Notes: a model not told the origin generated them from the letters alone. Shown: positions 8,831 to 25,013, numbered from the stretch's first letter. The stretch is 32,000 bases of DNA from Geotalea uraniireducens Rf4 (GCF_000016745.1 NC_009483.1:1110001-1142000); one strand, 5' to 3'. Made by a program: numbers and translations.

Positions 8831-10186
8831 CTACTGGGGCTGTCCTTCACCGGCCGGCTTTTTCTTTTGCGGCCGGCGGCGGCGCTTCTTCTCGCCTGCC
8901 TCACCCTCGCCGGCGGGTTTCTCGGCGCTCTTTTCAGCAGGCTTCTCAGTATGTTTTCCCGCTGGTTTGCCATGTCTTGGAGCGGGAGCCCTGCCGTGGG
9001 GTTTCGCTGCGGGTTTCGGCCTCGGCTTGCTCCGTATGTAATCGTGGACAAACAGCTCATCCTCGGCCCACTCCACCGGAATCCTCTCCTTGATGTACTC
9101 GTGGATGTCCTCCAGGTACAGCGCCCCATCCTCGTCGGCCAGGGAGATGGCTTTCCCTTCGGCCCCGGCCCGGGCGGTGCGGCCGATGCGGTGCACGTAG
9201 TCCTCCGCGTCCTGGGGGAGGTCGTAGTTGATGACGTGGGAGACCCCATCGATATGGAGGCCGCGGGAGGCGACGTCGGTGGCGATCATGATGGGCAGTT
9301 TACCGCTCTTGAAGTCTTCCAGGATGCGGAGGCGTTTCCTCTGCTCCACGTCGCCTGAGATGACCCGCGCCGGGAAGTCGTTGACATTGAGCCGGTCAAA
9401 GAGGAATTCCGCTTCCCGCTTGGTGTTGACGAAGATCATGGTCCGCTCCATCCCCTCCTTGCGCAGGAGCCCCAACAGAAGCGGGAACTTCTCCTTGCGC
9501 GACACGTGGTAGATGACCTGCTCGACCCGCTCGGCGGTCATCTGCTCCGGGGTGACGGCGACCTTTTCCGGCACGTTCATGAACTCGTAGGCCAGCTCCA
9601 TGACCCGCTGGTTGAGGGTGGCGGAGAACATCAGGTTCTGGCGCTCATCGAATGGGGGGAGGCGGCGCAGGATGAAGCGCAGGTCGGCGATGAACCCCAT
9701 GTCGAACATCCGGTCCGCCTCGTCGATAACGAGCGCCTCGATGTTCTTCAGGGAGTAGACCTTCTGCTTCAGGTAGTCGATGAGCCGGCCCGGGGTGCCG
9801 ATGACGATGTCCACCCCCTCCTTGAGGGCGTTCTTCTGCTTCATGTAGTCCACGCCGCCGTAAATGGCCTGGATGGTGAAGCCGGTATGTTTACCCAGCT
9901 GCTGGGCGTCCTTCTCGATCTGCACCACCAGCTCCCGGGTGGGGGCGAGGATCAGCGCCCGCGGGTGATGTTCGGTGCCGACTTTTTCCTGTTTCAGGAG
10001 GCGGGTGAAGAGGGAGATGAGAAATGCGGCGGTCTTGCCCGTGCCGGTCTGGGCTTGGCCTGCCACGTCCTTGCCCGCCAGGGCCGGCGGCAGGGCCTTT
10101 TCCTGGATGGGTGTGCATTCGGTGAAGCCGGTGTAGGCGATGCCCTGGAGCACCTGTTCCGGCAGATTTAAATCGGTGAATTTCAT
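8831..10186 (-). CDS. DEAD-box ATP-dependent RNA helicase (RhlE/CsdA-like) with a basic low-complexity C-terminal tail
   Basis: Motifs present are the Q motif (FTECTPIQ), AQTGTGKT, PTRELV, VIDEADRM, SAT and HRIGRTARAG. The tail is KPAAKPHGRAPAPRHGKPAGKHTEKPAEK...KKRRRRPQKKK. The preferred start is ATG at 10186 (MKFTDLNL) after aaagga; the track start is 10195. Confidence 0.92.
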   Translation of the reverse strand: MKFTDLNLPEQVLQGIAYTGFTECTPIQEKALPPALAGKDVAGQAQTGTGKTAAFLISLFTRLLKQEKVGTEHHPRALILAPTRELVVQIEKDAQQLGKHTGFTIQAIYGGVDYMKQKNALKEGVDIVIGTPGRLIDYLKQKVYSLKNIEALVIDEADRMFDMGFIADLRFILRRLPPFDERQNLMFSATLNQRVMELAYEFMNVPEKVAVTPEQMTAERVEQVIYHVSRKEKFPLLLGLLRKEGMERTMIFVNTKREAEFLFDRLNVNDFPARVISGDVEQRKRLRILEDFKSGKLPIMIATDVASRGLHIDGVSHVINYDLPQDAEDYVHRIGRTARAGAEGKAISLADEDGALYLEDIHEYIKERIPVEWAEDELFVHDYIRSKPRPKPAAKPHGRAPAPRHGKPAGKHTEKPAEKSAEKPAGEGEAGEKKRRRRPQKKKPAGEGQPQ

Positions 10187-10223
10187 TTGTAACATCCTTT
10201 TATTACATTATTTCAACAGGATA

Positions 10224-10252
10224 TCATTAACACACCGTTGTGCAAATGGCAA
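10224..10252 (-). promoter_or_regulatory. possible sigma70-type promoter for the helicase-WYL operon
   Basis: The minus strand reads TTGCCA, then a 17-nt spacer, then TAATGA, about 30 nt upstream of the helicase start. This is pattern matching only. Confidence 0.3.
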
Positions 10253-10721
10253 TGGGAAGAGTCGGCCGGATAATGAGCCGCAGCCGATAACGCCTTGACT
10301 TGACGGGTGTTCGGACGTATTTTAGGGCGCGTTAATAGGTTTTTTCTGAGCGGCTTTGTGCGCTTGCGGGGGGACATGCTGAAAGAGATGAAAACGCATA
10401 CCCATCATTGTGGGAGAAAAGGCCGGGAAGAAGGCCCTTCGAGACAGGCTGAAAGCTGTGGTAGGGAGATGGGAGCTGGAGGAAAGGCTCTGGCGTGTGC
10501 GTTTTGGATCGATTCGGGGCGATAGCGAGCTGGAAGAGAGAATTTTGAAGGATTGAAGCACAGGGTCTCAAGTACCTTGCACAAGGAAAAAGCTACCTGT
10601 ATAAGGAGCTTGTAAGATGCACTTGAAAACGACAAAAGTAACCTATATAGGCAACCACGACGCTCCCTATATAGGGAAACCTACTAATAAGTTGTTGTGC
10701 AATGAATCGAATGAGAAACCC

Positions 10722-11087
10722 ATGAAAATACAATCGATCGTACCACGAGCTGCCATCATCTTCGTCTCTGCACTAGTCGGTGCGTCACTGGACAAAGTAG
10801 GAGACTTTGATCAAGTGTATTCAGCCGTTTGCGGCGGGATTGTTGCTGCGGTAGCTGTTGGCATCGGAGCATTATTCAATACCAAAACGAAGGAATTAGA
10901 AAACACAACTCCGCCGAGAAAGTTACTAGGGCTACGAATCGGGGTTATTGGCTTTTGTGTGGCAGTAGTCGGTTGGCTAGTTGCTGTATATGCTTCCCAG
11001 CCTGCCGGTTTCGTACTTGCTGCCTCTGGTATTGGAATAGGCTTTGTAGGCATGGGAATCCACTACGTGAACATGTTCCGTAAGTAA
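10722..11087 (+). CDS. small integral membrane protein (about 4 predicted TM helices), hypothetical
   Basis: MKIQSIVPRAAIIFVSALVGASL...GGIVAAVAVGIGALF...IGVIGFCVAVVGWLVAVY...VLAASGIGIGFVGMGI shows repeated hydrophobic G/A/V/I-rich stretches. ATG at 10722 is chosen over the track start 10617. Confidence 0.55.
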   Translation: MKIQSIVPRAAIIFVSALVGASLDKVGDFDQVYSAVCGGIVAAVAVGIGALFNTKTKELENTTPPRKLLGLRIGVIGFCVAVVGWLVAVYASQPAGFVLAASGIGIGFVGMGIHYVNMFRK

Positions 11088-11324
11088 ACCGGTGCACAAC
11101 CACTCGGCGGCACGCGGTCTCCGCTTCGCTCCGCCGGTGCGCCTCGACCACGTTATGCATTGAAGGAGAGGTTATGAAGGGTCAATGGATAGGTATCTAT
11201 CAAGGAAGTGCTGAAGGAAGAGCGAAAAAAGGGGACAGATTTATTTTCTGACCTTCCTCGGCCTTCCCTGGAAAAGCTTAGCTCATTGCAAGAGGGCCGC
11301 TTACGCGGCAATGAGTGGGTCGAG

Positions 11325-11732
11325 TCAGGAGCGAGGGCGATGGAGCATAATTGGCAGATGGGTCTGAAACAGAGTGAAATCCCCATCCGTAGTAAAAATG
11401 GGGATCTTGTGCCGTGCCGCTATGGCGCATATGAGAAAGTCGGTATTTGATCCCTGAATTCCCTTACCACGACAGAGGTTGAAGAATTCAGCTGCCGTCT
11501 CGTAATCACGGGTTGTCAGTTCAAGATCGGGAAAAGTCCGCAGGTGATTGCGCAGCTTCTGGAATTGGGCCTGGTTCTTGACCCCGGAGAGGAGTTCCTG
11601 ACGTACCGGTCCGATCATCTGGACCCGAACCTCCTTGATCAACTCGATTAATTCAGTTACCTCAGGGCCATCATCGGGCAGATTGCGCCGCAGTGCCAGG
11701 GACCATACAGATGTGTCAACAAGGATCTTCAT
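11325..11732 (-). CDS. vapC: type II toxin, PIN-domain ribonuclease VapC
   Basis: MKILVDTSVW (N-terminal acidic Asp), ...IGPVRQELLSG... and ...TDFLICAIAARHKIPIFTTDGDF form the PIN acidic quartet pattern. It overlaps the upstream antitoxin gene by 4 nt. Confidence 0.88.
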   Translation of the reverse strand: MKILVDTSVWSLALRRNLPDDGPEVTELIELIKEVRVQMIGPVRQELLSGVKNQAQFQKLRNHLRTFPDLELTTRDYETAAEFFNLCRGKGIQGSNTDFLICAIAARHKIPIFTTDGDFTLFQTHLPIMLHRPRS

Positions 11733-11929
11733 TGCTTCTTTCGCTGTATCTTATAGTCGTAGTCGGGATCATACTCTACCGAATGGAACAGGTTAATAAT
11801 TTCGGCTTGTTTTCGGCGCTGAATGTATTCCGCAAGTGCTTCGTTAACCACCGCCTTTTTTGTTGCATGTTTGCCGACTGTGCGGGCTTCTTCGAGCAGT
11901 TTGTCGTCAATAGCCAAGTTTGTTGCCAT
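11729..11929 (-). CDS. vapB: type II antitoxin VapB
   Basis: 66 aa, MATNLAIDDKLLEEARTVGKHATKKAVVNEALAEYIQRRKQ, a typical VapB-antitoxin N-terminus. RBS ggaggtgcccc precedes it, with an ATGA-type overlap with vapC. Confidence 0.85.
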   Translation of the reverse strand: MATNLAIDDKLLEEARTVGKHATKKAVVNEALAEYIQRRKQAEIINLFHSVEYDPDYDYKIQRKKQ

Positions 11930-11941
11930 GGGGCACCTCCA

Positions 11942-11980
11942 TTACACAAATATTTACACCTCATATTGTGTAAAGTCAAG
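11942..11980 (-). promoter_or_regulatory. vapBC promoter with overlapping palindromic operator
   Basis: The minus strand reads TTGACT, a 17-nt spacer, then TAAATA. The imperfect palindrome ttacacaaatat...atattgtgtaa (11942-11974) spans the spacer and -10, as expected for an autoregulated TA operon. Confidence 0.5.
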
Positions 11981-12176
11981 CAGACGCTACGATAATTTCA
12001 GGGAAAGGTGGTTTGCTCCACTGCCGCAAAGAAGAAAGCGCCGAATCTGGACGTGGTGTCGGATGCCGCAAACAACGCGGCCCCGCACACGCCCAAAGCT
12101 GTTCGATCAGCAAACCTAACCCAAAAATCAACTTCGCAATTGACATGGGGAATAATATTCTCTAGACTTTTTCCAG

Positions 12177-12386
12177 ATGACCCGCCTACATCATAACCGA
12201 AATTGGAAAATCGCAGTCTTTGGCCGAGAGCACGGCGTTCCGCATTTCCATCTGTGGTGGCCTGATGGACGGGCATCCATAAACCTCGAAACCCTTGAGG
12301 TCATTATCGGAAACCCGCCAGCAGTCCTTCTTGCCGAAGCCCGTACATGGGCGAACGAGAACAGGGAGCGGATCTGGACAGAATGA
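12177..12386 (+). CDS. DUF4160 domain protein
   Basis: 69 aa with WKIAVFGREHGVPHFHLWW, matching the DUF4160 (x)HxPPHFH-type motif. Confidence 0.75.
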   Translation: MTRLHHNRNWKIAVFGREHGVPHFHLWWPDGRASINLETLEVIIGNPPAVLLAEARTWANENRERIWTE

Positions 12387-12411
12387 CAAAAACTGAACCG
12401 GAGATAAAATC

Positions 12412-12855
12412 ATGAATCAACAAAAAATCAAATCCGTTACTGCTGAAGCACCGTCACATTTAACAATATTGTGGCGCTCCGGCAAACATACCAGGGTTGA
12501 TATATCCGAATATTTCGACTCACCCGGGTATGAAAGGCTGAAGGAATCGAAGTTCTTTGAAACTGCTGTAGTCGAAGAATGGGGGCATGGGATAGAGTGG
12601 GCAGATGGAGAAATCGGCATGGACGCAGATTCCCTTTACAGACTGGGAAAAGAGCAGGCTGGCCTTGCCTTCCCGGTGACCGAGTTCAATGCTTGGATGG
12701 AACGTAACGGTCTTTCTCTGAGCGCTGCGGCCAAAGCGCTCGGCATTACACGCCGCACGATCGTGTACTATCACGGCGGACACAAGCCGATTCCCATCTA
12801 TATCAAGCTTGCCTGTATCGGGTGGGAAACCCTTCACTTGGAGCACGCAGCGTGA
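12412..12855 (+). CDS. DUF2442 domain protein with C-terminal helix-turn-helix
   Basis: The N-terminus (LTILWRSGKHTRVDISEYF...FETAVVEEWGHGIEWADGEIGMDADSLY) fits DUF2442. The C-terminus LSLSAAAKALGITRRTIVYYHGG looks like an HTH. Confidence 0.7.
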   Translation: MNQQKIKSVTAEAPSHLTILWRSGKHTRVDISEYFDSPGYERLKESKFFETAVVEEWGHGIEWADGEIGMDADSLYRLGKEQAGLAFPVTEFNAWMERNGLSLSAAAKALGITRRTIVYYHGGHKPIPIYIKLACIGWETLHLEHAA

Positions 12856-12878
12856 AAGAACAACGAGACCTAACCCCC

Positions 12879-13364
12879 ATGGATCTAATTAAGCATAAAT
12901 ATTTGAACAATACTTCCCGCTTTAAAAAATATTCTAATTCAACAACATATAAAATCGAAGCTAAAGAGCCAGACTATTTGTATATCAAGGAATCTCAAAT
13001 ACCTGGTTCTGGTAATGGTTTATTTACAGCAATTGCAATTTACAAGGATGAAGTAATTTCAATTTTCAAAGGAAAGATTTTATCAGATAAAGAAGCACAA
13101 TACAGAGCAACAAATGGTGAAGATGGATATTTTATAAACATGCCCGATGGAACAATATTGGATTCAATGAAAGTGAAGTGTTTTGCTAAATGTGCAAATG
13201 ATGCTTTGGGCTTTGTTAAAACAAAGTATAAAAACAATTCAAAAATAACGCTAGACGAAAATGGTAACGTTTGTATTGTAGCAAATAGAAATATATTGGT
13301 CGGTGAAGAAATATTCTGCAGCTATGGTAATAAATATTGGAAAAAATATTCGGAAAAATGGTGA
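12879..13364 (+). CDS. minimal SET-domain protein (putative protein lysine methyltransferase)
   Basis: IKESQIPGSGNGLFTAIAIYKDEVI is a GxG AdoMet-binding N-SET motif. KCANDALG sits in place of the NHS/C motif. VGEEIFCSYGNKYW is an ELxxxY-type C-terminal SET motif resembling viral vSET GEEITISYGDDYW. Very AT-rich (about 25-33% GC by eye). An alternative GTG start at 12852 overlaps the upstream stop. Confidence 0.7.
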   Translation: MDLIKHKYLNNTSRFKKYSNSTTYKIEAKEPDYLYIKESQIPGSGNGLFTAIAIYKDEVISIFKGKILSDKEAQYRATNGEDGYFINMPDGTILDSMKVKCFAKCANDALGFVKTKYKNNSKITLDENGNVCIVANRNILVGEEIFCSYGNKYWKKYSEKW

Positions 13365-13387
13365 ATTCACCTTCTAAGTGCACCACA

Positions 13388-13495
13388 GGAAGACTATGAG
13401 GAAGACTATGGGGTCAGGGGAAGACTATGGGGTCAGGGGGAAGACTATGGGGTCAGTATGGGGTCAGTGGGGTCAGTATGGGGTCAGGACTTGAT
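13388..13495. repeat. left REP-like array: 3 units of GGAAGACTATGGGGTCAGG plus 3 shorter (TA)TGGGGTCAG units
   Basis: It reads ggaagactatgag gaagactatggggtcagg ggaagactatggggtcaggg ggaagactatggggtcag tatggggtcag tggggtcag tatggggtcaggacttgat. The last 19 bp (13477-13495) are the exact inverted complement of 14471-14489. Confidence 0.9.
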
Positions 13496-13524
13496 AATTT
13501 GAATATCGGTGGTATTCTCTGACC

Positions 13525-14490
13525 ATGGCACGAAAACCCCGCATACACACGCCTGGTGCAATTTACCACGTAATCGTTCGTGGCAATGCACGTCAGGATA
13601 TTTTCTCAGATGATAAGGACCGGTATCGCTTCTATGAGATTCTCCAGAAATCGTGCGAGCGATTCCAGCACCGAATTCACGCCTTTTGCCTGATGACAAA
13701 CCATGTACATCTGGAGATTCAGGTGAGCGATATACCCTTATCAAGAATCATGCAGAACGTGTCTCTGAGGTACACGCAGTGGTTCAACTGGCGGCACAAA
13801 AAGTCGGGTCACGTTTTCCAGGGCAGATATAAGGCTGTTATGGTAGATGCCGACGCTTACCTTCTGGAACTGGCATCCTACATTCACCTCAATCCAGTGC
13901 GGGCGCGGATCGCGGGCCAGCCGGAAAATTACCGGTGGAGCAGTCACCAGGCATATCTTGGCAAGGAGAGCCTTCCATGGCTCGAAACCGATTTCATCCT
14001 TTCCCAGTTCTCCACCAATGTAACGGATGCTCGTATAAAGTTTGTGGTATTTGTGGGCGAGAGATTGGCGGAAGGCCGTCGGGAGGAGTTTCATGGGGAG
14101 AAGAACATCGACAGCCGCATCTTTGGAGATGACCATTTCGTCGATGGCGTGCTTGCAGAGGTGGAATCTCTGCCGGAACAAAAACCTGACGTGAATGCCG
14201 TAGTTGGAGCCGTGAAGAGGCTTTATGATATCCGCGATGATCGTCTCAGTGCGCAGGGTCGAGACCGGGTCACTTCCGAAGCTAGAGGCCTTGCGGCGTG
14301 GGCGACGCTAGAGCTTAGCAGTGGGAAGCTGACGGAGTTAGCGAGGCACGTGGGACGAGACCCCTCGACGTTAACATGTGCCCTGCGACGAATTGAGAAA
14401 CTGCGGGAAAAAGATCCCCTGCTTGTTGATAAAATGGAACGGCTACGGCGTGATTTGCTGGAGTCAAGTTATCAAGTCCTGACCCCATAG
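13525..14490 (+). CDS. REP-associated tyrosine transposase (RAYT, IS200/Y1 HUH family) with a DnaA-C-like HTH C-terminal domain
   Basis: The N-terminus is YHVIVRGNARQDIF...HAFCLMTNHVHLEIQ (HUH motif) ...GHVFQGRYKAV (catalytic Tyr) ...YIHLNPVRA. The C-terminus AAWATLELSSGKLTELARHVGRDPSTLTCALRRIEKLREKDPLL resembles the DnaA domain IV / Bac_DnaA_C helix-turn-helix. Confidence 0.85.
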   Translation: MARKPRIHTPGAIYHVIVRGNARQDIFSDDKDRYRFYEILQKSCERFQHRIHAFCLMTNHVHLEIQVSDIPLSRIMQNVSLRYTQWFNWRHKKSGHVFQGRYKAVMVDADAYLLELASYIHLNPVRARIAGQPENYRWSSHQAYLGKESLPWLETDFILSQFSTNVTDARIKFVVFVGERLAEGRREEFHGEKNIDSRIFGDDHFVDGVLAEVESLPEQKPDVNAVVGAVKRLYDIRDDRLSAQGRDRVTSEARGLAAWATLELSSGKLTELARHVGRDPSTLTCALRRIEKLREKDPLLVDKMERLRRDLLESSYQVLTP

Positions 14491-14515
14491 CATGCTCCTG
14501 ACCCCATAGCATGCT
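14471..14515. repeat. right REP-like array: atcaagt plus 2 units of CCTGACCCCATAGCATGCT (inverted relative to the left array)
   Basis: It reads atcaagtcctgaccccatagcatgct cctgaccccatagcatgct and overlaps the last codons and stop of the RAYT gene. Confidence 0.9.
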
Positions 14516-14727
14516 CTTAGCATGCATGGGTAGCGCTCCCCGTATCTCTATGCCCTCTACAGAAGATTGAATTTGGGGCAACCCGCCGGCCTCGAAACAC
14601 CATAATCGTTACAGCGTCCTCATAGCTTCTTTCAAATCTATTAAAATTTTAATTGACCGTAGCCAATTCTCGGTGGTATCGTCATCGCCGGCAAAACCAA
14701 ATTCCTATCGGTAAGGAGAAAATAAAG

Positions 14728-17700
14728 ATGGCAGAAGAAAACCACAAAAGACACTCCTTGTTTTCTATTGTGCAAAACCAAACAAGAGAAACAACTCAGG
14801 AGAGCTACAAGCGTGTTGGCGCCTGGTTTTTGGGGTCATGCGGCGAAAATGCCGATCTGATGGAAAATTTGGTAACCGCCAGTCTTAGCGAGCATGCCAA
14901 TTTTCGTAAAACCTACTTTAACGATCCGCCTTATATCGATACGGATATAAAATCTTCGCAGGAGTACAAAACAGCCTGCAATAACCTCGAAATCGCCCGC
15001 AAAGAGTTATCCCAAAAACTGCATGACAGCGTGCCTTTTTTTAGCGAACGCTACCAGGCACACATGAATTGGGATACCGTTTTACCGGCCAATGTCGGCT
15101 ATATTACCGCCATGATGTACAACCAAAATAATGTTGCCACCGAAGGCGGTCCCCAAACTTGTGCACTGGAAAAAGAGGTTGGTGAGCAGCTGTGCAGCTT
15201 GATGGGATTTGCCAAAGAGTTCGTGGTGAATACCAACGATAATCCAATTAAGGTTAATCCTTGGGGGCATATCACAGCTGACGGCACAATTGCTAATCTG
15301 GAATCCATGTGGGTAGCACGAAATTTGAAATTCTACCCTTTGGCTGTGAAAGAGGCTCTGTTTTGCTACAGGAAGAACGAGCTTGCCGAAGCCTATAATA
15401 AACTTACAGTTACCGTTTATGAAGCGGAAGATAACCCGACGATGATGGTACGTAAAACTAAACTCCTGGTTAATTGTACTACTTGGCAGCTGCTTAATCT
15501 GTTGCCTGATGAAGTTTCCTGTCTGGCTGAAAATATTATTCACTATTGTCCACAATATAAAGAAACCGGTATTGATAAATTTCTGACCCCGTTTTTAATC
15601 CAAAACAAGGGACTGATGTACTACACACAAACGTACCCTGAGATAAAAAGCATGAGAGTCTTCGTACCGGCTACCAACCACTATTCATGGCCAAAATCGG
15701 GAACTGTTCTGGGGCTGGGGCAAGATAGCGTTGTGGGTATTCCGGTTGACAATAATTGCCGCATGGATATTAACATTTTAAGAAATCAACTATTGGAATG
15801 CGCCCAAAACAAGATCCCTGTTTTAATGGTTGTCGGTGTAATCGGCAGTACCGAAGAAGGCGTGGTGGATAACCTTGAAGGTATTCTTAAACTGCGTAAA
15901 GAGACAATCAGTGGAAGCTATCAATTTAACGGATTAAATTTCCTTATCCACTGCGATGCAGCTTGGGGCGGCTACCTGCGCACTATGATGGTCAATCCTA
16001 AAACCGATAACGCAGAAGTTGTACAGGCCGAGTTTGTGGCCGATGTACCGCTCTCATCATATGCTCAAAAACAATATGCTCTTTTACAAATGGCTGACAC
16101 GCTGACTGTTGATCCGCACAAGGCAGGTTTTATACCGTACCCGGCCGGTTCGCTTTGTTATCGTAACGGATTCATGCGCTACTTCATTACATTTAACGCC
16201 GCCTACATTCATTCGGATAAAAATCTTAACATGGGTATCTTTGGCCTGGAAGGTTCCAAGCCGGGGGCTGCCGCTGCGGCTGTCTGGATGGCTCATCGTA
16301 CGATTCCATTGGATAACAGCGGCTATGGCTTGATTCTTGGCGAGTGTGCCTTCAGCGCAAAACTTTACTACTGCTACTGGCTGACACTGGCAGGCGACAG
16401 CGATGTTTTCAGAATAGAATCGCTGGTACCGCTGCCGGAAAAAATTACCGGCTATCAAGGTCAAACCTTAGCTACCGGTAAAGCAGACATTATCCGCTAT
16501 ATCAGAAACAACATTATCGGCAAAACCAACGAGCATTTGGCTAAAAATCCGGATCTGATTGCCGTTTTACAACAAATTGGTTCAGATGTGCTGATCAACT
16601 CCTTCGTGGTTAACTTTAAGAACAAAGACGGACGATGGAATACAGATCTTACCAAGCTGAATACGCTTAACAATAATCTGTTAAAGAAATTTTCCATTAC
16701 CACGCCTGAACAAGCCCATGAAAAAAATACACCATTTATCATTACCAGCTCTAATTTAACCAATCAAAACTACAAAGTACCATTGACAAGAATTGGTAAA
16801 GAGCTGGGCATTGCCATACCTGACGAACAGTCCATGACATTTATCATCAACACGATTTTGCATCCCTGGCCAACAACGAACGGCTTTATCAACACGATCA
16901 TGAGCCTGTTTAAACAGGAAGTTTTAAATCAAATCAAAACCCTGCAAACAACAGAAACCCTGCAACAGCTTGTCATGGAAGCCGTCGCAACTGACCGTGT
17001 AACAGCGATTCCAAGCGACGCCACCGCCAGACCTGCCCGCTGGTATAATCTCAATAACTCCTATGCCGGTTATGCTAAAGCCGATAAAAACGGCAACGAG
17101 CTGTTTTACTGGTTCTTTGAAAGCCAGACAAAACCAACCGAACAGACACCACTGGTACTTTGGCTTAATGGTGGACCGGGTGCATCCTCTTTAGCCGGTC
17201 TGTTTTTAGAAAACGGACCATTTGCCATGGGAAGTGATGGTATGCTTACACCAAACAGTTACAGCTGGAATACCAAAACCCATCTTATCTACTGGGATCA
17301 GCCTGCAGGCACCGGTTTCAGCACAAAAAAACCAAACACCTACGTTACAACCGAAGCGGAACTGGCCAAACAGTTTGTCAATGCCCTGCAGGATTTCTAT
17401 GCCAAACATCCTGAATACCGCAACAATCCACTCTATCTGACAGGGGAAAGTTATGCCGGTAAATATTTGCCGTACATTGCCACAGAGATCACAACACGCA
17501 ACAAAACAGGCAATGAGCTTAAGATTCACCTGCATGGCATAGCCATTGGTGACGGCTGGATGTACCCGGAAAAACAAACTCTTGATCAGATTGAGTATGC
17601 TTATATGCTTGGTTTGGTCGATGCCAATCAAAAAAGGCTTGCTCTAGAACAATTTGAGCAGTTCTCCGTGGATTTGAAAAAAGGGGATATGAAACAGGCA

Positions 17701-18309
17701 TTCACGGATGGAACAAAAGTAAGTTCCACTTTAACTGCCTGCGGCGGCGGTGAAAATATCTATGATGTCCGTAGTTGGTCGGATGCTTCATTGCAACCAT
17801 TGCGCAACTACCTGGGCAGCCCTTTGGTGAAACAGGCTATTCATGTGCCGCAAGAGGTTGTCTGGAGTTTTGAAGATGCTGCGGGACCGGTTTCCGATAA
17901 CCTGATTAACGACATGATGGCCTCGGTTACTGCGGTTATTCCCCCTTTGGTTGACATACAAAGCAACGGGAAGCCTGTCTACCAACTGCTCTTTTATACC
18001 GGCAACTTTGATATGTCCTGCGGTTTTTCCGGCACCGAACAGATTTTAAGAAACATGAATTGGTCAGGCAAAGAAAGCTGGGCCAAGTTGAAGCGCCAGG
18101 TTTGGTATACAACCGACAGCAACAATAAGAGAGTTACCCAAGGCTGCATTAAAAGACTTGCCAATCTGATGCAAATAGAGGTGCCGATGTCCGGCCATCA
18201 AGTACCATTGTATCAGCCAAAGATCTCCCAAGACATGCTGCATGCCTGGATATTTAATGAAGCGTTTAAGACCTATGATCCGTTATCTGAACAGGCAAAA
18301 GCTAAATAA
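14728..18309 (+). CDS. fusion protein: N-terminal group II PLP-dependent (tyrosine-decarboxylase-like) decarboxylase + C-terminal S10 family serine carboxypeptidase
   Basis: N-terminal part: GHITADGTIANLESMWVARNLKFYP, VPATNHYSWPKSG, LIHCDAAWGGY and TVDPHKAGFIPYPAGSLCYRN (PLP-Lys, nt 16111-16122). C-terminal part: LWLNGGPGASSLAGLFLENGPF (nt 17161-), YLTGESYAGKYLPYIA (nucleophile Ser, nt 17444-17461), and GHQVPLYQP (catalytic His, nt 18193-18207). ATG at 14728 follows aaggag. A single uninterrupted frame, about 42-45% GC by eye. Confidence 0.8.
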   Translation: MAEENHKRHSLFSIVQNQTRETTQESYKRVGAWFLGSCGENADLMENLVTASLSEHANFRKTYFNDPPYIDTDIKSSQEYKTACNNLEIARKELSQKLHDSVPFFSERYQAHMNWDTVLPANVGYITAMMYNQNNVATEGGPQTCALEKEVGEQLCSLMGFAKEFVVNTNDNPIKVNPWGHITADGTIANLESMWVARNLKFYPLAVKEALFCYRKNELAEAYNKLTVTVYEAEDNPTMMVRKTKLLVNCTTWQLLNLLPDEVSCLAENIIHYCPQYKETGIDKFLTPFLIQNKGLMYYTQTYPEIKSMRVFVPATNHYSWPKSGTVLGLGQDSVVGIPVDNNCRMDINILRNQLLECAQNKIPVLMVVGVIGSTEEGVVDNLEGILKLRKETISGSYQFNGLNFLIHCDAAWGGYLRTMMVNPKTDNAEVVQAEFVADVPLSSYAQKQYALLQMADTLTVDPHKAGFIPYPAGSLCYRNGFMRYFITFNAAYIHSDKNLNMGIFGLEGSKPGAAAAAVWMAHRTIPLDNSGYGLILGECAFSAKLYYCYWLTLAGDSDVFRIESLVPLPEKITGYQGQTLATGKADIIRYIRNNIIGKTNEHLAKNPDLIAVLQQIGSDVLINSFVVNFKNKDGRWNTDLTKLNTLNNNLLKKFSITTPEQAHEKNTPFIITSSNLTNQNYKVPLTRIGKELGIAIPDEQSMTFIINTILHPWPTTNGFINTIMSLFKQEVLNQIKTLQTTETLQQLVMEAVATDRVTAIPSDATARPARWYNLNNSYAGYAKADKNGNELFYWFFESQTKPTEQTPLVLWLNGGPGASSLAGLFLENGPFAMGSDGMLTPNSYSWNTKTHLIYWDQPAGTGFSTKKPNTYVTTEAELAKQFVNALQDFYAKHPEYRNNPLYLTGESYAGKYLPYIATEITTRNKTGNELKIHLHGIAIGDGWMYPEKQTLDQIEYAYMLGLVDANQKRLALEQFEQFSVDLKKGDMKQAFTDGTKVSSTLTACGGGENIYDVRSWSDASLQPLRNYLGSPLVKQAIHVPQEVVWSFEDAAGPVSDNLINDMMASVTAVIPPLVDIQSNGKPVYQLLFYTGNFDMSCGFSGTEQILRNMNWSGKESWAKLKRQVWYTTDSNNKRVTQGCIKRLANLMQIEVPMSGHQVPLYQPKISQDMLHAWIFNEAFKTYDPLSEQAKAK

Positions 18310-18362
18310 GTCCTAAAATAATGTTAAAACGGCAGTTACTCTCACAGGGCACACAGAGACGG

Positions 18363-18400
18363 GGGGAATGGAGACTCAACTCTCCATTCCCCATTTTTTT
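18363..18400 (+). terminator. rho-independent terminator of the fusion gene
   Basis: Stem ggggaatggaga (18363-18374), loop ctcaac, stem tctccattcccc (18381-18392), followed by attttttt. Confidence 0.85.
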
Positions 18401-18467
18401 CAAAAGGAGAACAGAGGGGGCAGCCCTTGGTGCGGGACAAATAAGAGGAGTCTAAAGCAAGTCAGTA

Positions 18468-18809
18468 TTAGTACCCCATTTCATGAAGTATGGAGCGCAG
18501 TTTTGCCACACTGATGTCTGATTGCTCAGATTTGGAGTAAACGGTGACCAGAATGATGTCGCGGGTTTTAAGGTAATAGATGCAACGGTAACCGGACCGT
18601 TTTCCTTTCTGGATGTCACTGTTTTGGAGACGTACCTAGAAGATGGTCAGGCTGACGCCAGGCACCTGGTCGCCGGGAAGCTCACCCGCCAGCAGATGAT
18701 CTATGAGTGGTTGAATATCGGAGCGGATGGAACGGTATTTCTTGGCAAGCGCACGCAGGTTGCGCTTGAATTCCAGGGTAAACGATATGATGACGTGCTC
18801 ACTGGGCAT
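18468..18809 (-). pseudogene. RelE/ParE-family type II toxin gene interrupted by an in-frame TAG at codon 58
   Basis: Hand translation gives MPSEHVIISFTLEFKRNLRALAKKYRSIRSDIQPLIDHLLAGELPGDQVPGVSLTIF*VRLQNSDIQKGKRSGYRCIYYLKTRDIILVTVYSKSEQSDISVAKLRSILHEMGY*. The stop is cta at 18636-18638 on the + strand, where homologues would be expected to have a sense codon; one base change gives Lys AAG. Both halves are under 60 aa and so are absent from the track. It overlaps the antitoxin stop by 11 nt. Confidence 0.7.
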
Positions 18810-19035
18810 CAATGCCCTTCCACAGTTCCGAAACAGGAAGAGTATTCCCTTCCAGCGCCTCCTTCATACCCGTCCGAATACTTTCAGCAGCTGGTTTGAG
18901 TAAGATGCCGTGGCGGAACCCTCGGACTATTTCAAGAAGGGCCGGTAAATATTCCTCAGGAGTGGTTTCTATCTCGTGATACAGTTCCTTGGCGCATACC
19001 GATTTTGCTGAACGCATGGCATACCTCATAATCAT
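18799..19035 (-). CDS. putative type II antitoxin (partner of the disrupted RelE/ParE-like toxin)
   Basis: A small acidic ORF immediately upstream of, and overlapping, the toxin gene. ATG at 19017 (MRSAKSV...) has the better RBS (gaggtatgcc). Family not recognised with certainty. Confidence 0.55.
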   Translation of the reverse strand: MIMRYAMRSAKSVCAKELYHEIETTPEEYLPALLEIVRGFRHGILLKPAAESIRTGMKEALEGNTLPVSELWKGIDAQ

Positions 19036-19047
19036 TTTTATTCAAAC

Positions 19048-19063
19048 TATTCATCAATGAATA
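19048..19063. promoter_or_regulatory. perfect palindrome TATTCAT-CA-ATGAATA upstream of the antitoxin gene (candidate operator)
   Basis: tattcatcaatgaata can be read directly, 13-30 nt upstream of the candidate antitoxin starts. Confidence 0.4.
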
Positions 19064-19243
19064 AGAAATGTCAAGGCATTACAAAAACAGCGGCAGTAAC
19101 AGTCCTCCTGGTGGCGATGGAAGGCAAATCCCCCTAAATCCCCCTTTCATAAAGGGGGGACTTGGTCTCTCGGAAGATTGGTACTGATCGGCAAGAACAA
19201 AGAGTACCTGACCCCCTATGGTTGCTGACATTAGCGAGATAAT

Positions 19244-19381
19244 ATGAATATCAATGAGATAAAAGAATCAATCAGAAAGTTGGGTAAGCCTGAAATAGCT
19301 GAAGTAAGCCGAAGATTTTTCAAGACCGGGCCGGGGCAGTATGGAGAAGGTTTCCAGAAGTTGAAAGGCAAAAATACCTGA
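19244..19381 (+). pseudogene. N-terminal fragment of a DNA alkylation repair (AlkD-like HEAT-repeat) protein gene
   Basis: MNINEIKESIRKLGKPEIAEVSRRFFKTGPGQYGEGFQKLKGKNT* The RFFKTGPGxYGEG motif matches the start of AlkD-family proteins, which are more than 200 aa. Here the frame stops after 45 codons. Confidence 0.5.
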
Positions 19382-19586
19382 AGAAGTAATCAGGCAGCCC
19401 AACCCTTTGCTGACCCCGCAAAAGTGTGATCCTACCAAAATCAGTTTCATGATAAATCAAACGTCTTGCAACACATTTTCTGATTGTTGGGCTATATTAG
19501 CGTGGTATAATTTGTCGGGTTCCTGTCCTGCCGGTTGGCCGGCGCAGGGTCCAAACAAAGGATAAAGAACGTGAGGGGTGACAGAC

Positions 19587-20888
19587 ATGAGAACCTTTAT
19601 ATCCATCGTGATCGTGGTGGTGTTGGGCATCACCGCTTATTATTTTTTGGGCACGCCAGCGCCTGCGGTGTCTCTGACGCCCGATGGCGGGCCGATCTCC
19701 GCAAGCCGCGAACTGGCCATTAAGCTGGACGCATCCGGAGCCCTGCTTAAAAAACTTACGGTGAGGGCCCTTCAAGGCGATAAGACGGTCGATGTCCTGG
19801 TCAAGGATTATCCCAAAGGCACCCACCAAGCCGGAGAAACCTTCAATTTCAGTCGGGCCGGCCTCAGGGAAGGCCCCTTCCAGCTGCAGATCAAGTCGAC
19901 AGATTCTCCCCTGCATTTCGGCGCCGGCAACAGTACTACACTTCTCCGCTCTTACGACATGCAGAATACGCCGCCAGTTGTCGCGGTGTTGAGCGCTGCC
20001 CACAACATCACCCGCGGAGGCGCCGGTCTGGTGGTATACACGCTCCCCAGAGAGGTTGAGAAAACAGGTGTAAAGTACGCTGACCAGTTCTCTCCCGGGT
20101 ACAGGCAGGGGGGGGGCTTTTACGCCTGTCTCTTTCCTTTCCCTTACAACATGGACCCCAAACAATACGTTCCGAGGGTGATAGCCGTTGACCGTGCCGG
20201 CAACGAGCGGCTCATGGGAATCAACTTCCATCTCCTTCCAAAAACCTTTTCCGCGGACAGGATCAATCTGTCCGACTCCTTTCTGGAGAAGGTTGCCGCT
20301 GAGTTCAAGAACAAATTTCCGCAGGCCGCAACACCACTGGAAATCTTCCAGAAGGCTAACAACCAGCTGCGGGAGCAGGATGCCAAAGCCCTTAATGAAT
20401 TCGCAAGGCAAACCTCGCCCGTGCCGCTCTGGCAGGGGGAGTTCCTGCGGTTGCCCAACTCCGCCCCACGCGGTTCCTTCGGCCAGTTCCGCATTTATCT
20501 GTATCAGGGAAAAGTCGTAGATCAGCAGACTCACCTGGGGGTCGACCTGGCCTCCCTTGCCCATTCCCCTGTGCCTGCTGCCAATCGCGGCAGGGTTGTC
20601 CATGCCGGCGACCTGGGCATTTACGGTCAGTGCATCGTAATCGACCATGGCCTGGGTCTGCAGACCCTCTACGGCCACTTGAGCCAAATGGTAGTTAAGG
20701 AAGGGGACAACGTGGAAAAAGGCCAGACTATCGGCAACACCGGGGCCACCGGCATGGCCGCCGGCGACCACCTCCACTTTGGAGTCATCGTATCCGGTGT
20801 TCCGGTCAATCCGATCGAATGGTGGGACCCGTCCTGGATCAGAAACAATGTCACGAACAAGCTCGATATGTATAAAACATCAAAATGA
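19587..20888 (+). CDS. M23 family (LytM-type) metallopeptidase with an N-terminal membrane anchor
   Basis: MRTFISIVIVVVLGITAYYFLG is a TM helix or signal anchor. The C-terminus HLGVDLA...IVIDHGLGLQTLYGHLS...GNTGATGMAAGDHLHFGV carries the HxxxD and HxH M23 motifs. ATG at 19587 follows gagggg. Confidence 0.9.
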   Translation: MRTFISIVIVVVLGITAYYFLGTPAPAVSLTPDGGPISASRELAIKLDASGALLKKLTVRALQGDKTVDVLVKDYPKGTHQAGETFNFSRAGLREGPFQLQIKSTDSPLHFGAGNSTTLLRSYDMQNTPPVVAVLSAAHNITRGGAGLVVYTLPREVEKTGVKYADQFSPGYRQGGGFYACLFPFPYNMDPKQYVPRVIAVDRAGNERLMGINFHLLPKTFSADRINLSDSFLEKVAAEFKNKFPQAATPLEIFQKANNQLREQDAKALNEFARQTSPVPLWQGEFLRLPNSAPRGSFGQFRIYLYQGKVVDQQTHLGVDLASLAHSPVPAANRGRVVHAGDLGIYGQCIVIDHGLGLQTLYGHLSQMVVKEGDNVEKGQTIGNTGATGMAAGDHLHFGVIVSGVPVNPIEWWDPSWIRNNVTNKLDMYKTSK

Positions 20889-24876: not shown

Positions 24877-25013
24877 TGTCGTGAACTCCTCATCGGGTCC
24901 TTGACCCGGAAAAATGATGTCAGAAGCTGACCTGGGAGCGGAGTAATCGACATAAAAAAAAGCCCCGCTGAATGAGTGAACATGCAGACGGGGCTGGTAT
25001 TGTGAAGCTATTG

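What the first reader, a model, noticed from the sequence alone, without database searches (positions are those of the whole stretch)
14728..18309. Single 1,193-codon ORF fusing a tyrosine-decarboxylase-like PLP enzyme to an S10 serine carboxypeptidase
Seen in sequence: one uninterrupted frame carries both enzyme signatures.
- The first ~760 aa have group II PLP-decarboxylase signatures (GHITADGTIANLESMWVARN, HCDAAWGGY, DPHK PLP-lysine).
- The last ~420 aa have the full S10 carboxypeptidase signature set (WLNGGPGASS oxyanion region, GESYAG nucleophile, GHQVP histidine).

Established knowledge: S10 peptidases are overwhelmingly eukaryotic secreted or vacuolar enzymes. Large (~620 aa) tyrosine decarboxylases are typical of Firmicutes.

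Inference: a carboxypeptidase that releases C-terminal residues, physically coupled to an amino-acid decarboxylase, suggests a channelled peptide-to-biogenic-amine (or amine-tailoring) pathway. No signal peptide is visible, which would be unusual for an S10 enzyme. The gene is about 15-20 GC points below the backbone and sits next to a RAYT, so it is probably horizontally acquired. I do not recognise this domain architecture.
Basis: partly seen in the sequence, partly recalled or inferred. Interest (0 to 1): 0.85.

Follow-up and report, generated by a model that had tools for sequence, protein, structure and literature searches.

The report
Carboxypeptidase fused to amino-acid decarboxylase
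A real Geobacter-group gene joins an aromatic-amino-acid-type decarboxylase to a serine carboxypeptidase, and relatives of that carboxypeptidase across bacteria and archaea almost always sit beside some decarboxylase, pointing to an unstudied two-step route from peptide ends to amines.

Summary
Window 14728-18309 (+) is one 1,193-codon gene, identical to Geotalea uraniireducens Rf4 protein A5GB80. It has its own ribosome-binding site and terminator. Residues 1-745 match the "non-canonical aromatic amino-acid decarboxylase" PcncAAAD (PDB 6EBN) end to end, not the Enterococcus tyrosine decarboxylase. Residues 757-1193 are a complete S10 carboxypeptidase. All catalytic residues of both halves are invariant in 17 fusion proteins (47-63% identity), so this is not an assembly artefact.

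The main new result concerns the S10 half. It belongs to a prokaryotic S10 clade that mostly lacks signal peptides. In 57 of 64 genome loci a decarboxylase is adjacent to it or fused to it. The partner is usually an unrelated pyruvoyl enzyme (PSD/PsiD-like), sometimes a separate PLP decarboxylase. Partners from two unrelated folds argue that peptidase plus decarboxylase is one functional unit.

The best reading is that the peptidase releases a C-terminal (probably aromatic) amino acid and the decarboxylase converts it to an amine. Substrates and channelling remain untested. The sequence has been public since about 2007, but I found no paper on it. The low GC of both halves and a strain-variable island indicate recent acquisition of the already fused gene.

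The parts
14653..14682 (+). Sigma-70-like promoter candidate (TTGACC-18 nt-TATCGT, with a TG extension). Weak evidence only.
   Evidence: The number of such sites in the region does not exceed the shuffled expectation.
14713..14718 (+). Shine-Dalgarno sequence AAGGAG, 9 nt before the ATG.
14728..18309 (+). Complete coding sequence of the 1,193-aa bifunctional protein (identical to G. uraniireducens Rf4 A5GB80), stop codon included.
14728..16962 (+). N-terminal PLP-dependent group II decarboxylase module (aa 1-745) of the PcncAAAD / non-canonical AAAD type. Key residues: PLP lysine K465 (nt 16120-16122), H464, D410, H181, catalytic-loop Y493, rim-helix V136/A137, lid-loop F655/S656.
16963..16995 (+). 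Inter-domain hinge (aa 746-756). It lies at the end of a long connecting helix (aa 718-750) and includes the only low-confidence stretch between the domains (aa 747-752).
   Evidence: The conserved 'D-x-V-x-x-IP' motif that begins stand-alone S10 proteins follows directly.
16996..18306 (+). C-terminal S10 serine carboxypeptidase module (aa 757-1193). Catalytic triad: S908 (nt 17449-17451), D1095 (nt 18010-18012), H1157 (nt 18196-18198). Carboxylate/oxyanion network: W812, N814, G815, E828, E907. A819 replaces the disulfide cysteine of eukaryotic enzymes.
18363..18400 (+). Intrinsic terminator: 12-bp stem GGGGAATGGAGA / TCTCCATTCCCC, 6-nt loop, then a T7 tract.

Best explanation
The gene encodes a cytosolic, self-contained bifunctional enzyme.

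Shown:
- Both halves are intact catalysts.
- The fusion is old and is inherited as a unit.
- Its S10 module belongs to a prokaryotic clade that is almost always partnered with an amino-acid decarboxylase, fused or as an operon neighbour.

Inferred mechanism:
1. The S10 module binds a peptide, or another acyl-amino-acid conjugate, through its free C-terminal carboxylate.
2. It hydrolyses off the C-terminal residue.
3. The released L-amino acid is taken by the neighbouring PLP active site and decarboxylated to the corresponding amine plus CO2. The amino acid is most likely aromatic or hydrophobic, because the characterised relatives of two partner types (PcncAAAD and PsiD) are aromatic amino-acid decarboxylases. 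The expected product is a phenethylamine-, tyramine- or tryptamine-type amine.
4. The decarboxylase part presumably dimerises like PcncAAAD. The S10 module occupies the position of PcncAAAD's essential C-terminal appendage, next to the lid that caps the decarboxylase pocket. It may therefore also stabilise or gate that pocket.

In Geotalea the already fused gene was acquired recently by horizontal transfer into a strain-variable island.
For: 1. Integrity. Pfam hits cover both halves. aa 18-737 align end to end with PcncAAAD 6EBN (E 2e-147; Foldseek E 7e-59). The S10 half aligns with cathepsin A and CPY, including the triad motifs (TM 0.80-0.83 on the target). AF2 mean pLDDT is 91.5.

2. Selection. 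In 17 fusions of 47-63% identity the following are invariant: H181, D410, H464, K465, Y493, V136/A137, S656 in the decarboxylase, and W812, N814, G815, E828, E907, S908, D1095, H1157 in the S10. These are the residues named functional in PcncAAAD (Lys443, His442, Tyr471, Val131/Ala132, Ser632; PMC13062060). By motif equivalence and from my own knowledge of CPY, they also cover the C-terminal carboxylate network of CPY (Trp49/Asn51/Glu65/Glu145).

3. Coupling. Among 64 genome loci whose S10 is at least 38% identical to this one, 52 have a decarboxylase directly adjacent on the same strand or fused. Five more are adjacent or fused once HSP truncation is allowed for. Among 8 distant S10s, none is.

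4. Partner diversity. The partners are five lineages from two unrelated folds:
- fused ncAAAD;
- a separate ncAAAD gene 10 bp downstream of the S10 gene (L088, 35% identity);
- another group II PLP decarboxylase 14 bp downstream (L060);
- an actinobacterial/methanosarcinal PSD-like pyruvoyl enzyme;
- a PsiD-type enzyme (E 1e-36 to L-tryptophan decarboxylase structures).
The two PSD-like types share only 22% identity. They keep the GGS self-cleavage motif (PsiD cleaves at GGSS, PMC11929908).

5. No third gene is conserved next to the pair, and no neighbour is shared among the fusion loci. The pair is sufficient as a unit.

6. A second exopeptidase family (M28) is fused to an ncAAAD in P0289.

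7. The domain trees are congruent for the two halves.

8. Cytosolic location. There is no signal peptide or membrane segment and only 3 Cys in the S10 half. The stand-alone relatives start directly at the D-x-V-x-x-IP motif.

9. Monocistronic unit with a Shine-Dalgarno sequence and a terminator.

10. Transfer. GC is 0.448 and GC3 0.48 against neighbours at 0.57-0.63 and 0.68-0.87. Both halves are equally low. Fusion genes in five other hosts match their flanks.
Against: - No biochemical data exist for any member of the fusion family or of the prokaryotic S10 clade. MEROPS calls the bacterial S10 homologues uncharacterised (PMC5753285).
- Substrate identity is extrapolated from relatives with 33% structure-based sequence identity (PcncAAAD) or less. 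One rim-helix position differs (F133 in PcncAAAD against T138 here).
- It is unclear why a cell with free cytosolic amino acids needs a dedicated carboxypeptidase to feed a decarboxylase.
- AF2 pTM is 0.70 and the hinge at 747-752 is low-confidence, so the domain interface, and hence channelling, is undetermined.
- The order of the two steps is inferred only from the conserved carboxylate-binding network.
- The genome scan used two S10 peptide patterns and is not exhaustive. It missed Desulfatibacillum.
- The trees are neighbour-joining without support values.
Confidence: 0.55

Rival explanations
1. The order of the steps is reversed, or the S10 transfers an acyl group instead of hydrolysing. 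The decarboxylase makes an amine and the S10 module uses it as the nucleophile for its acyl-enzyme intermediate (aminolysis/transpeptidation). The products would be N-acyl-arylalkylamines or peptides capped with a C-terminal amine, rather than free amine.
For: From my own knowledge, S10 enzymes can transfer acyl groups: plant SCPL acyltransferases do so, and CPY-catalysed transpeptidation is used in peptide semisynthesis. The tight pairing with decarboxylases fits either order of steps. Fusion would keep the amine concentration high near the acyl-enzyme.
Against: The residues that bind a free alpha-carboxylate in the S1' site (W812, N814, E828, E907) are invariant in the fusions and largely conserved in the stand-alone clade. 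An amine acceptor has no carboxylate to bind. No acyl-donor-forming gene (glucosyltransferase, ligase) is conserved nearby.
Confidence: 0.12
2. The S10 module is mainly a structural or activating partner of the decarboxylase. It would act like the essential C-terminal appendage of PcncAAAD, the 'protective' role of cathepsin A, or the maturation factors of pyruvoyl enzymes (HdcB, PanZ, PrdH). Its peptidase chemistry would be secondary or unused.
For: The S10 starts at the position where PcncAAAD's appendage domain begins (aa 718 there, about 757 here). That appendage is required for PcncAAAD activity through the lid loop (PMC13062060). The lid motif F655-S656 is invariant here. Pyruvoyl enzymes sometimes need maturases (references in PMC11929908).
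Against: The full catalytic triad, the oxyanion residues and the carboxylate network are invariant over 47-63% identity and across the stand-alone genes. That is not expected for a purely structural role. Many ncAAAD relatives of about 700-730 aa exist with no appendage. A maturase role cannot apply to PLP enzymes, yet PLP partners occur three times. PSD and PsiD enzymes self-cleave.
Confidence: 0.13
3. The two activities are metabolically independent. The fusion and the gene pairs would merely reflect co-regulation of general peptide and amino-acid catabolism, or chance.
For: No third pathway gene and no transporter is conserved. The neighbourhoods of the fusion gene are unrelated. No physiological role is evident.
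Against: The association recurs with five decarboxylase lineages of two folds, in Actinomycetota, Desulfobacterota, Bacteroidota, Bacillota, Pseudomonadota, Myxococcota and Euryarchaeota. Intergenic gaps are mostly -4 to +60 bp. The association is absent from the distant S10s.
Confidence: 0.1
4. The ORF is an assembly chimera, or a pseudogene joined by a sequencing error.
For: None found.
Against: The identical protein is in a finished genome. A 98% identical copy lies on four independent contigs. There are 17 full-length homologues with the same junction and a conserved linker motif. Both halves have the same atypical GC.
Confidence: 0.01

Closest known systems
PcncAAAD, the non-canonical calcium-activated aromatic L-amino-acid decarboxylase of Psilocybe cubensis (PDB 6EBN)
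   Same: The ~720-aa catalytic N-terminal domain aligns end to end (E 2e-147; best Foldseek hit). The PLP Lys/His pair, the catalytic-loop Tyr, the rim-helix Val-Ala and the lid-loop Phe-Ser are conserved. Both carry an extra domain attached at the same C-terminal point.
   Different: The appended domain here is an S10 carboxypeptidase, not the double beta-barrel Ca2+-binding domain. The appendage-side calcium ligand (Asp971) has no counterpart. Structure-based sequence identity is 33%. The host is bacterial. Substrate range is untested.
Eukaryotic S10 serine carboxypeptidases (human cathepsin A / protective protein, yeast CPY, Kex1)
   Same: Same fold (TM 0.74-0.83 on the target). Same Ser-Asp-His triad, WLNGGPG oxyanion region and GESYAG nucleophile motif.
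   Different: No signal peptide or propeptide. The GGPGCSS cysteine is replaced by Ala, and the whole module has only 3 Cys, so it is predicted to be cytosolic. It is fused to, or in an operon with, a decarboxylase. Identity is about 25-28%.
Prokaryotic stand-alone S10 genes paired with PSD/PsiD-like pyruvoyl decarboxylases (Streptomyces, Kitasatospora, Actinomadura, Methanosarcina, Polyangia, Clostridia and gamma-proteobacterial MAGs). I found no paper describing these pairs.
   Same: The S10 module is 40-51% identical and starts with the same D-x-V-x-x-IP motif. All but one of the 18 stand-alone S10s aligned lack a signal peptide. All have a decarboxylase as immediate partner.
   Different: The partner is a separate gene and is a non-homologous, pyruvoyl-dependent enzyme rather than a PLP enzyme. 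The gene order is usually decarboxylase first, then S10.
Enterococcus / Lactobacillus tyrosine decarboxylase TdcA (TIGR03811; PDB 5HSI, 7CWX)
   Same: Same group II PLP fold with the large insertion and the tyr_de_CO2_C-type C-terminal region (TM 0.87 on the target; E 1e-80).
   Different: It scores 324 bits against the 905-bit equivalog cut-off. No tyrosine/tyramine antiporter or tyrS gene is nearby. Identity is about 26%.
Plant serine-carboxypeptidase-like (SCPL) acyltransferases
   Same: They are S10 fold enzymes recruited into small-molecule metabolism rather than bulk proteolysis. This is a conceptual parallel drawn from my own knowledge.
   Different: They are secreted or vacuolar, use glucose-ester donors and are not linked to decarboxylases. 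No sequence-level affinity was tested here.

Membership tests
Peptidase family S10 (Pfam PF00450, MEROPS S10) | Profile match above the curated threshold over the whole domain | tested here: met
   317 bits against 21.9; profile positions 10-419 of 420.
Peptidase family S10 (Pfam PF00450, MEROPS S10) | Catalytic triad Ser-Asp-His in that order, within the GESYAG, D-x-x-C and GH-x-VP motifs | tested here: met
   S908, D1095 and H1157 align with the cathepsin A motifs. They are invariant in 17 fusions and 19 stand-alone relatives.
Peptidase family S10 (Pfam PF00450, MEROPS S10) | C-terminal-carboxylate / oxyanion network (W-x-N-G-G, E-x-G-P, and Glu before the nucleophile) | tested here: met
   W812, N814, G815, E828 and E907 are invariant in the fusions. 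The Glu before Ser is Gln in 2 of 19 stand-alone relatives. The mapping to CPY residues is by motif and from my own knowledge.
Peptidase family S10 (Pfam PF00450, MEROPS S10) | Alpha/beta-hydrolase fold of CPY and cathepsin A | tested here: met
   Foldseek TM 0.80-0.83 (normalised on the target) to 4MWS, 4CIA, 1YSC.
Peptidase family S10 (Pfam PF00450, MEROPS S10) | Secretory or vacuolar targeting with conserved disulfides (typical of characterised members, not strictly defining) | tested here: not met
   No N-terminal hydrophobic segment. GGPGCSS has become GGPGASS. Only 3 Cys in the module.
Peptidase family S10 (Pfam PF00450, MEROPS S10) | Carboxypeptidase activity | not testable with these tools
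   Needs an enzyme assay.
Non-canonical AAAD family (PcncAAAD-like group II PLP decarboxylases) | Full-length similarity to the ~717-aa catalytic domain of PcncAAAD | tested here: met
   aa 18-737 align to 6EBN residues 11-710, E 2e-147. It is the top Foldseek hit.
Non-canonical AAAD family (PcncAAAD-like group II PLP decarboxylases) | PLP lysine with preceding His, catalytic-loop Tyr, rim helix and lid loop | tested here: met
   K465/H464, Y493, V136/A137 and F655/S656 correspond to Lys443/His442, Tyr471, Val131/Ala132 and Phe631/Ser632. All are invariant.
Non-canonical AAAD family (PcncAAAD-like group II PLP decarboxylases) | C-terminal double beta-barrel appendage with Ca2+ sites A and B | tested here: not met
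   The C-terminal 437 aa are an S10 domain. Many bacterial family members have no appendage at all, so this feature defines PcncAAAD itself rather than the family.
Non-canonical AAAD family (PcncAAAD-like group II PLP decarboxylases) | Decarboxylation of aromatic L-amino acids | not testable with these tools
   Needs an enzyme assay.
Enterococcus-type tyrosine decarboxylase (NCBIfam TIGR03811 equivalog) | Score at or above the equivalog cut-off | tested here: not met
   323.8 bits against a cut-off of 905.3, in two stretches.
S10 + decarboxylase module (grouping proposed here) | An S10 of this clade (at least ~38% identity) fused to, or immediately adjacent on the same strand to, an amino-acid decarboxylase gene | tested here: met
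   The window gene is the fused form. 57 of 64 clade loci show adjacency or fusion, against 0 of 8 distant S10 loci.

The most novel reading that the evidence does not exclude
The S10 and the decarboxylase do not simply run in series. Together they would remodel peptide C-termini. The S10 forms an acyl-enzyme while releasing the C-terminal residue. The adjacent decarboxylase converts that residue to its amine. The amine then attacks the acyl-enzyme. The net result is a peptide (or acyl chain) whose last residue has been 'decarboxylated' into a C-terminal arylalkylamide. That would be a ribosome-independent, cofactor-cheap route to amine-capped peptides or N-acyl-arylalkylamines, widespread in Streptomyces, anaerobes and methanogens.
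Probability: 0.07. Interest if true: 0.9.

Novelty: new variant of a known kind. Interest (0 to 1): 0.65.

Why it matters
Prokaryotic S10 peptidases are a blank spot. MEROPS lists them only as numerous uncharacterised homologues (PMC5753285). This work gives them a concrete, testable context: a cytosolic carboxypeptidase that is almost always wired to an amino-acid decarboxylase, with the decarboxylase drawn from two unrelated enzyme folds.

If the coupling is confirmed, it would define a new two-step route from peptide C-termini to biogenic or aromatic amines. The route would be present in actinomycetes that make natural products, in sulfate and metal reducers, in gut-type anaerobes and in methanogens.

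It would also provide the first bacterial members of the PcncAAAD family with a defined partner, and a natural single-polypeptide biocatalyst for making arylalkylamines from peptides. The host, Geotalea uraniireducens Rf4, is cultured, so experiments can start at once.

Tried and rejected
- Assembly chimera or frameshift: rejected.
- Firmicutes-type TyrDC membership: rejected, 324 bits against a 905-bit cut-off.
- A conserved operon around the fusion gene: five independent contexts share no neighbour.
- A third conserved gene next to the S10 + PSD-like pairs (transporter, ligase, precursor peptide): all-against-all clustering of 3,014 flank ORFs found only the two families plus shadow ORFs.
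- RNA elements: no tRNA and no Rfam match in the window.
- Literature: searches for the accessions, for uraniireducens plus serine carboxypeptidase, for S10 plus PSD plus Streptomyces, and for PsiD-like enzymes found nothing on this pairing.
- AF2 to see whether the two active sites face each other: both domains are confident, but pTM is 0.70 and the hinge is disordered, and the tool returns no contact or PAE data, so the interface could not be judged.
- Recent fission as the origin of the L088 split pair: rejected. Its decarboxylase is only 35% identical to the window's N-half, although its S10 is about 50% identical.
- P0328 and P0345 as alternative S10 fusions: they are tandem S10 proteins with no decarboxylase.
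- S10 as a pyruvoyl maturase: considered and disfavoured, because PLP partners also occur.

Full report
**1. What is in the sequence**

A single + strand ORF runs from 14653 (TTG) or 14728 (ATG) to the stop at 18307-18309. The ATG at 14728 is the likely start for three reasons. AAGGAG lies at 14713-14718, 9 nt upstream. The resulting 1,193 aa equal the length of the closest homologues. The extra 25 residues of the TTG form have no counterpart in those homologues. About 50 nt after the stop there is a textbook intrinsic terminator: a 12-bp stem at 18363-18392 followed by a T7 tract. A sigma-70-like site at 14653-14682 is only a consensus match. The gene therefore looks monocistronic. No tRNA or Rfam element occurs in the window.

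**2. The two halves**

- Pfam places Peptidase_S10 on aa 777-1176 (317 bits) and Pyridoxal_deC on aa 312-525.
- NCBIfam's best model is the Enterococcus tyrosine decarboxylase equivalog, but at 324 bits against a 905-bit cut-off. The protein is therefore not a member of that equivalog.
- Against solved structures, aa 18-737 align without large gaps to residues 11-710 of PDB 6EBN, the Psilocybe cubensis non-canonical aromatic amino-acid decarboxylase PcncAAAD (E 2e-147). The bacterial TyrDC structures follow at 1e-80.
- The C-terminal 447 aa match human cathepsin A (2e-51) and yeast CPY (3e-38), including GESYAG, the Asp of 'GNFDMSC' and 'GHQVP'.
- An AF2 model built on a 76-sequence alignment has a mean pLDDT of 91.5. 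Its only weak stretches are aa 1-6, 429-438 and a hinge at 747-752.
- Foldseek returns 6EBN first (E 7e-59), then TyrDC (TM 0.87 on the target), then cathepsin A, Kex1 and CPY (TM 0.74-0.83).

**3. Relation to PcncAAAD**

According to PMC13062060:
- PcncAAAD is a homodimer with a catalytic N-terminal domain (1-717) and a non-homologous C-terminal appendage (718-1013). The appendage is essential for activity.
- The appendage works by holding a 'lid' loop (Phe631-Leu647) over a 'rim' helix (Val131-Ala135) of the aromatic substrate pocket.
- The PLP lysine is Lys443, next to His442. The catalytic-loop tyrosine is Tyr471.
- Substrates are Phe, Tyr, Trp and kynurenines.

Using the alignment, these residues map to K465, H464, Y493, V136/A137 and F655/S656 (coordinates verified). 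In the window protein the S10 module begins exactly where PcncAAAD's appendage begins. One rim position differs (Phe133 there, Thr138 here), so substrate preference cannot simply be copied.

**4. The fusion is real, recurrent and old**

- The exact protein is ABQ25157.1 / WP_011937881.1 / UniProt A5GB80 of Geotalea (Geobacter) uraniireducens Rf4. It is annotated only as 'peptidase S10' or 'pyridoxal-dependent decarboxylase'.
- A 98% identical copy sits on four independent metagenome contigs.
- Seventeen further full-length fusions of 46-62% identity exist. One is in the finished genome of Desulfatibacillum (CP001322). Others are in Deltaproteobacteria and Bacteroidales MAGs, and an interrupted or partly matched copy lies in a Lachnobacterium MAG (L068).
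- In an alignment of 17 fusions, all the functional residues listed above are invariant, together with W812, N814, G815, E828, E907, S908, D1095 and H1157 of the S10 half.
- Neighbour-joining trees of the two halves show the same sub-clades, consistent with one ancient fusion inherited as a unit. These trees have no support values, so this is indicative only.
- Two stand-alone decarboxylases nest inside the fusion clade. One of them (Anaerosacchariphilus, L087) has no S10 nearby, which suggests secondary loss.
- In an exhaustive search of 1.84 billion representatives clustered at 50% identity, the family collapses to one full-length representative plus fragments. It is therefore rare.

**5. 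The unexpected part: the S10 clade and its partners**

Searching with the S10 half alone returned hundreds of prokaryotic stand-alone S10 proteins at 41-51% identity. They come from Streptomyces, Kitasatospora, Actinomadura, Nocardiopsis, gammaproteobacterial MAGs and Methanosarcina. Two are annotated 'tyrosine decarboxylase'.

These proteins start directly with the D-x-V-x-x-IP motif that follows the linker in the fusion. Of the 18 stand-alone proteins aligned, all but one lack a signal peptide. All have Ala, Gly or Pro where eukaryotic enzymes have the GGPGCSS disulfide cysteine.

Their gene neighbourhoods were striking:
- In Methanosarcina siciliae and Streptomyces tsukubensis, a PS_Dcarbxylase-family gene lies immediately upstream on the same strand.
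- In a Clostridia MAG, one lies immediately downstream, overlapping the S10 stop codon.
- A scan of GTDB species genomes gave 72 S10 loci. Among the 64 whose S10 is at least 38% identical to the window's, 50 have a PSD-like gene and 2 a fused ncAAAD directly adjacent. Five more are adjacent or fused once HSP truncation is allowed for. Five have none, and three of those five are contig-end or fragment cases.
- Among the 8 distant S10s (Legionella, Oligoflexia, Endozoicomonas, Thermoplasmatota), none has an adjacent decarboxylase.
- Intergenic gaps are mostly -4 to +60 bp.
- Clustering of all flank ORFs found no third conserved gene.

**6. Nature of the partners**

- The PSD-like proteins pass Pfam PF02666 but fall far below every NCBIfam phosphatidylserine-decarboxylase equivalog cut-off.
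- One subtype also carries PF12588 and matches the PsiD L-tryptophan decarboxylase structures at 1e-36, against 3e-7 for true PSD.
- The actinobacterial/methanosarcinal subtype is equally remote from both. It shares only 22% identity with the PsiD-like subtype.
- Across 63 partners, the 'GGS' cleavage site and the 'YH...P..G' motif are conserved at 90% or more. PsiD cleaves at GGSS, whereas PSD cleaves at LGST (PMC11929908).
- PLP partners also occur as separate genes. In L088 the S10 gene is followed 10 bp later by a 750-aa ncAAAD-family gene (35% identity to the window's N-half, with PF00282 and PF21391). In an Aminicenantes MAG (L060) the S10 gene is followed 14 bp later by a different 597-aa group II decarboxylase.
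- Separately, one metagenomic protein (P0289) fuses an M28 exopeptidase domain to an ncAAAD.

In total, five decarboxylase lineages from two unrelated folds partner with one S10 clade. This kind of non-homologous partner replacement is among the strongest genomic indications of a shared function.

**7. Mechanism**

Shown:
- Both active sites are intact and conserved.
- The S10 keeps the residues that, in CPY, bind the substrate's free C-terminal carboxylate. The mapping to CPY is by motif and from my own knowledge.
- The protein is predicted to be cytosolic.
- The pair is sufficient as a unit.

Inferred:
- The S10 removes a C-terminal residue from a peptide or acyl-amino-acid, and the decarboxylase converts that residue to an amine.
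- The conserved carboxylate-binding network favours this order over one in which the S10 acts on the amine.
- Characterised relatives of two partner types (PcncAAAD and PsiD) are aromatic amino-acid decarboxylases, and S10 enzymes generally prefer hydrophobic C-termini. An aromatic or hydrophobic residue is therefore the best guess.
- Because the S10 sits where PcncAAAD's activating appendage sits, it may additionally stabilise or gate the lid of the decarboxylase pocket.

Not shown: direct channelling. The AF2 pTM of 0.70 does not fix the domain arrangement.

Rivals:
- Acyl transfer to the amine.
- A structural, activating or maturase role for the S10.
- Mere co-regulation of two independent activities.
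- Artefact (refuted).

**8. Context and acquisition**

The window's housekeeping genes have GC 0.57-0.63 and GC3 0.68-0.87. They are a DEAD-box helicase, a WYL regulator, an M23 peptidase, TrmB and a large NAD-GDH. The fusion gene has GC 0.448 and GC3 0.48. Both halves are alike (0.438 and 0.465), so it arrived already fused.

It lies in a low-GC stretch (about 10000-19500) with a SET-domain gene (GC 0.33) and a Y1-transposase-like gene. In five other hosts the fusion gene matches its flanks.

The 98% identical metagenome siblings differ from the window in three ways. They have a VapBC pair and a DUF4331 gene upstream, which the window lacks. They have a 1,103-aa beta-helix/CARDB gene downstream, which the window lacks. 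The sequences diverge immediately after the stop codon and re-converge about 130 bp before the M23 gene.

**9. Novelty and verdict**

The sequence and its generic annotation have been public for years. MEROPS acknowledges numerous uncharacterised bacterial S10 homologues (PMC5753285). I found no paper on the fusion, on the accessions, or on an S10-decarboxylase pairing.

I rate it a new variant of known kinds: two known catalytic domains in an unstudied combination. The added finding is that the combination reflects a widespread two-component module that I did not find described in the literature. Interest is 0.65. The case is genuinely testable in cultured organisms and surprising for S10 biology, but it is built from familiar chemistry and has no biochemical proof yet.

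**Caveats**
- The genome scan relied on two S10 peptide patterns and missed at least Desulfatibacillum.
- The trees lack support values.
- Substrate predictions are extrapolations from distant relatives.

Noticed in passing
window 12822-13364 (+): A SET-domain protein gene (PF00856, E 1e-10) with very low GC (0.326; GC3 0.26) sits in a genome whose housekeeping genes are about 0.6 GC. It is a bacterial SET-domain methyltransferase candidate in the same island as the fusion gene. It is also present in the sibling contigs L001-L004.
   Followed up: partly
window 13525-14490 (+) and 14477-14514: A 321-aa protein combines a Y1_Tnp (IS200-like/RAYT-like) domain with a C-terminal DnaA-type helix-turn-helix (weak, below the Pfam cut-off). 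A perfect tandem 19-nt direct repeat (TCCTGACCCCATAGCATGC, two copies) spans its stop codon. This may be a REP-like element.
   Followed up: partly
window 18310-19450, compared with L001 12310-16150: The region differs between strains. Sibling contigs (fusion protein 98% identical) carry a 1,103-aa beta-helix/CARDB gene downstream and VapBC plus DUF4331 upstream. The window lacks all three and instead has about 1.1 kb of unrelated sequence, including an ORF (18522-18899) with no Pfam hit. The sequences diverge right after the fusion gene's stop codon and re-converge about 130 bp before the M23 gene.
   Followed up: partly
L089 6001-7689 (P0136); also P0133, P0145: Some stand-alone S10 proteins (about 560 aa) carry a conserved C-terminal extension of about 110 aa (…KWMDTGI…LSGTWTANP…GYTLPG.NEG.LCGK.G…FLCINDDL.G.YG.GF.DNEG…). 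It has no Pfam match. They are still paired with a PSD-like gene.
   Followed up: partly
P0289 (JGI metagenome contig, 1675 aa): A Peptidase_M28 domain (aa 326-538) is fused N-terminally to an ncAAAD-type decarboxylase (aa 661-1368; 33% identity to the window's N-half). This is a second, unrelated exopeptidase family fused to the same decarboxylase family. Organism unknown.
   Followed up: partly
P0247, and P0244/P0246/P0249/P0272/P0302: The ncAAAD family often carries extra domains. One member has an N-terminal beta/gamma-crystallin domain. Many members of 1,000-1,150 aa have C-terminal extensions of about 300 aa without Pfam hits, presumably PcncAAAD-like appendages.
   Followed up: no
P0242, P0243, P0245, P0308, P0313, P0315, P0333: Giant proteins (1,800-2,300 aa) match the S10 half in 7-8 stretches. 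The one scanned with Pfam (P0242) has four tandem S10 domains and a C-terminal ubiquitin-like domain. Probably eukaryotic; not pursued.
   Followed up: no
L010 9639-12570 (Methanosarcina siciliae C2J): Directly downstream of the PSD-like + S10 pair, on the opposite strand, lie a class III aminotransferase and an aldehyde dehydrogenase. That pair could convert an amine to the corresponding acid. A Y1 transposase gene is also nearby. The arrangement is seen in the Methanosarcina genome locus L010 and in one metagenome contig (L011) that carries the same S10 protein.
   Followed up: no
window 19497-20777 (-) against 19578-20888 (+); 21916-24876 (-) against 22654-24930 (+): Long antisense 'shadow' ORFs overlap the M23 peptidase and large GDH genes. 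This is typical of high-GC coding regions. The strand carrying the real gene was assigned by Pfam.
   Followed up: yes
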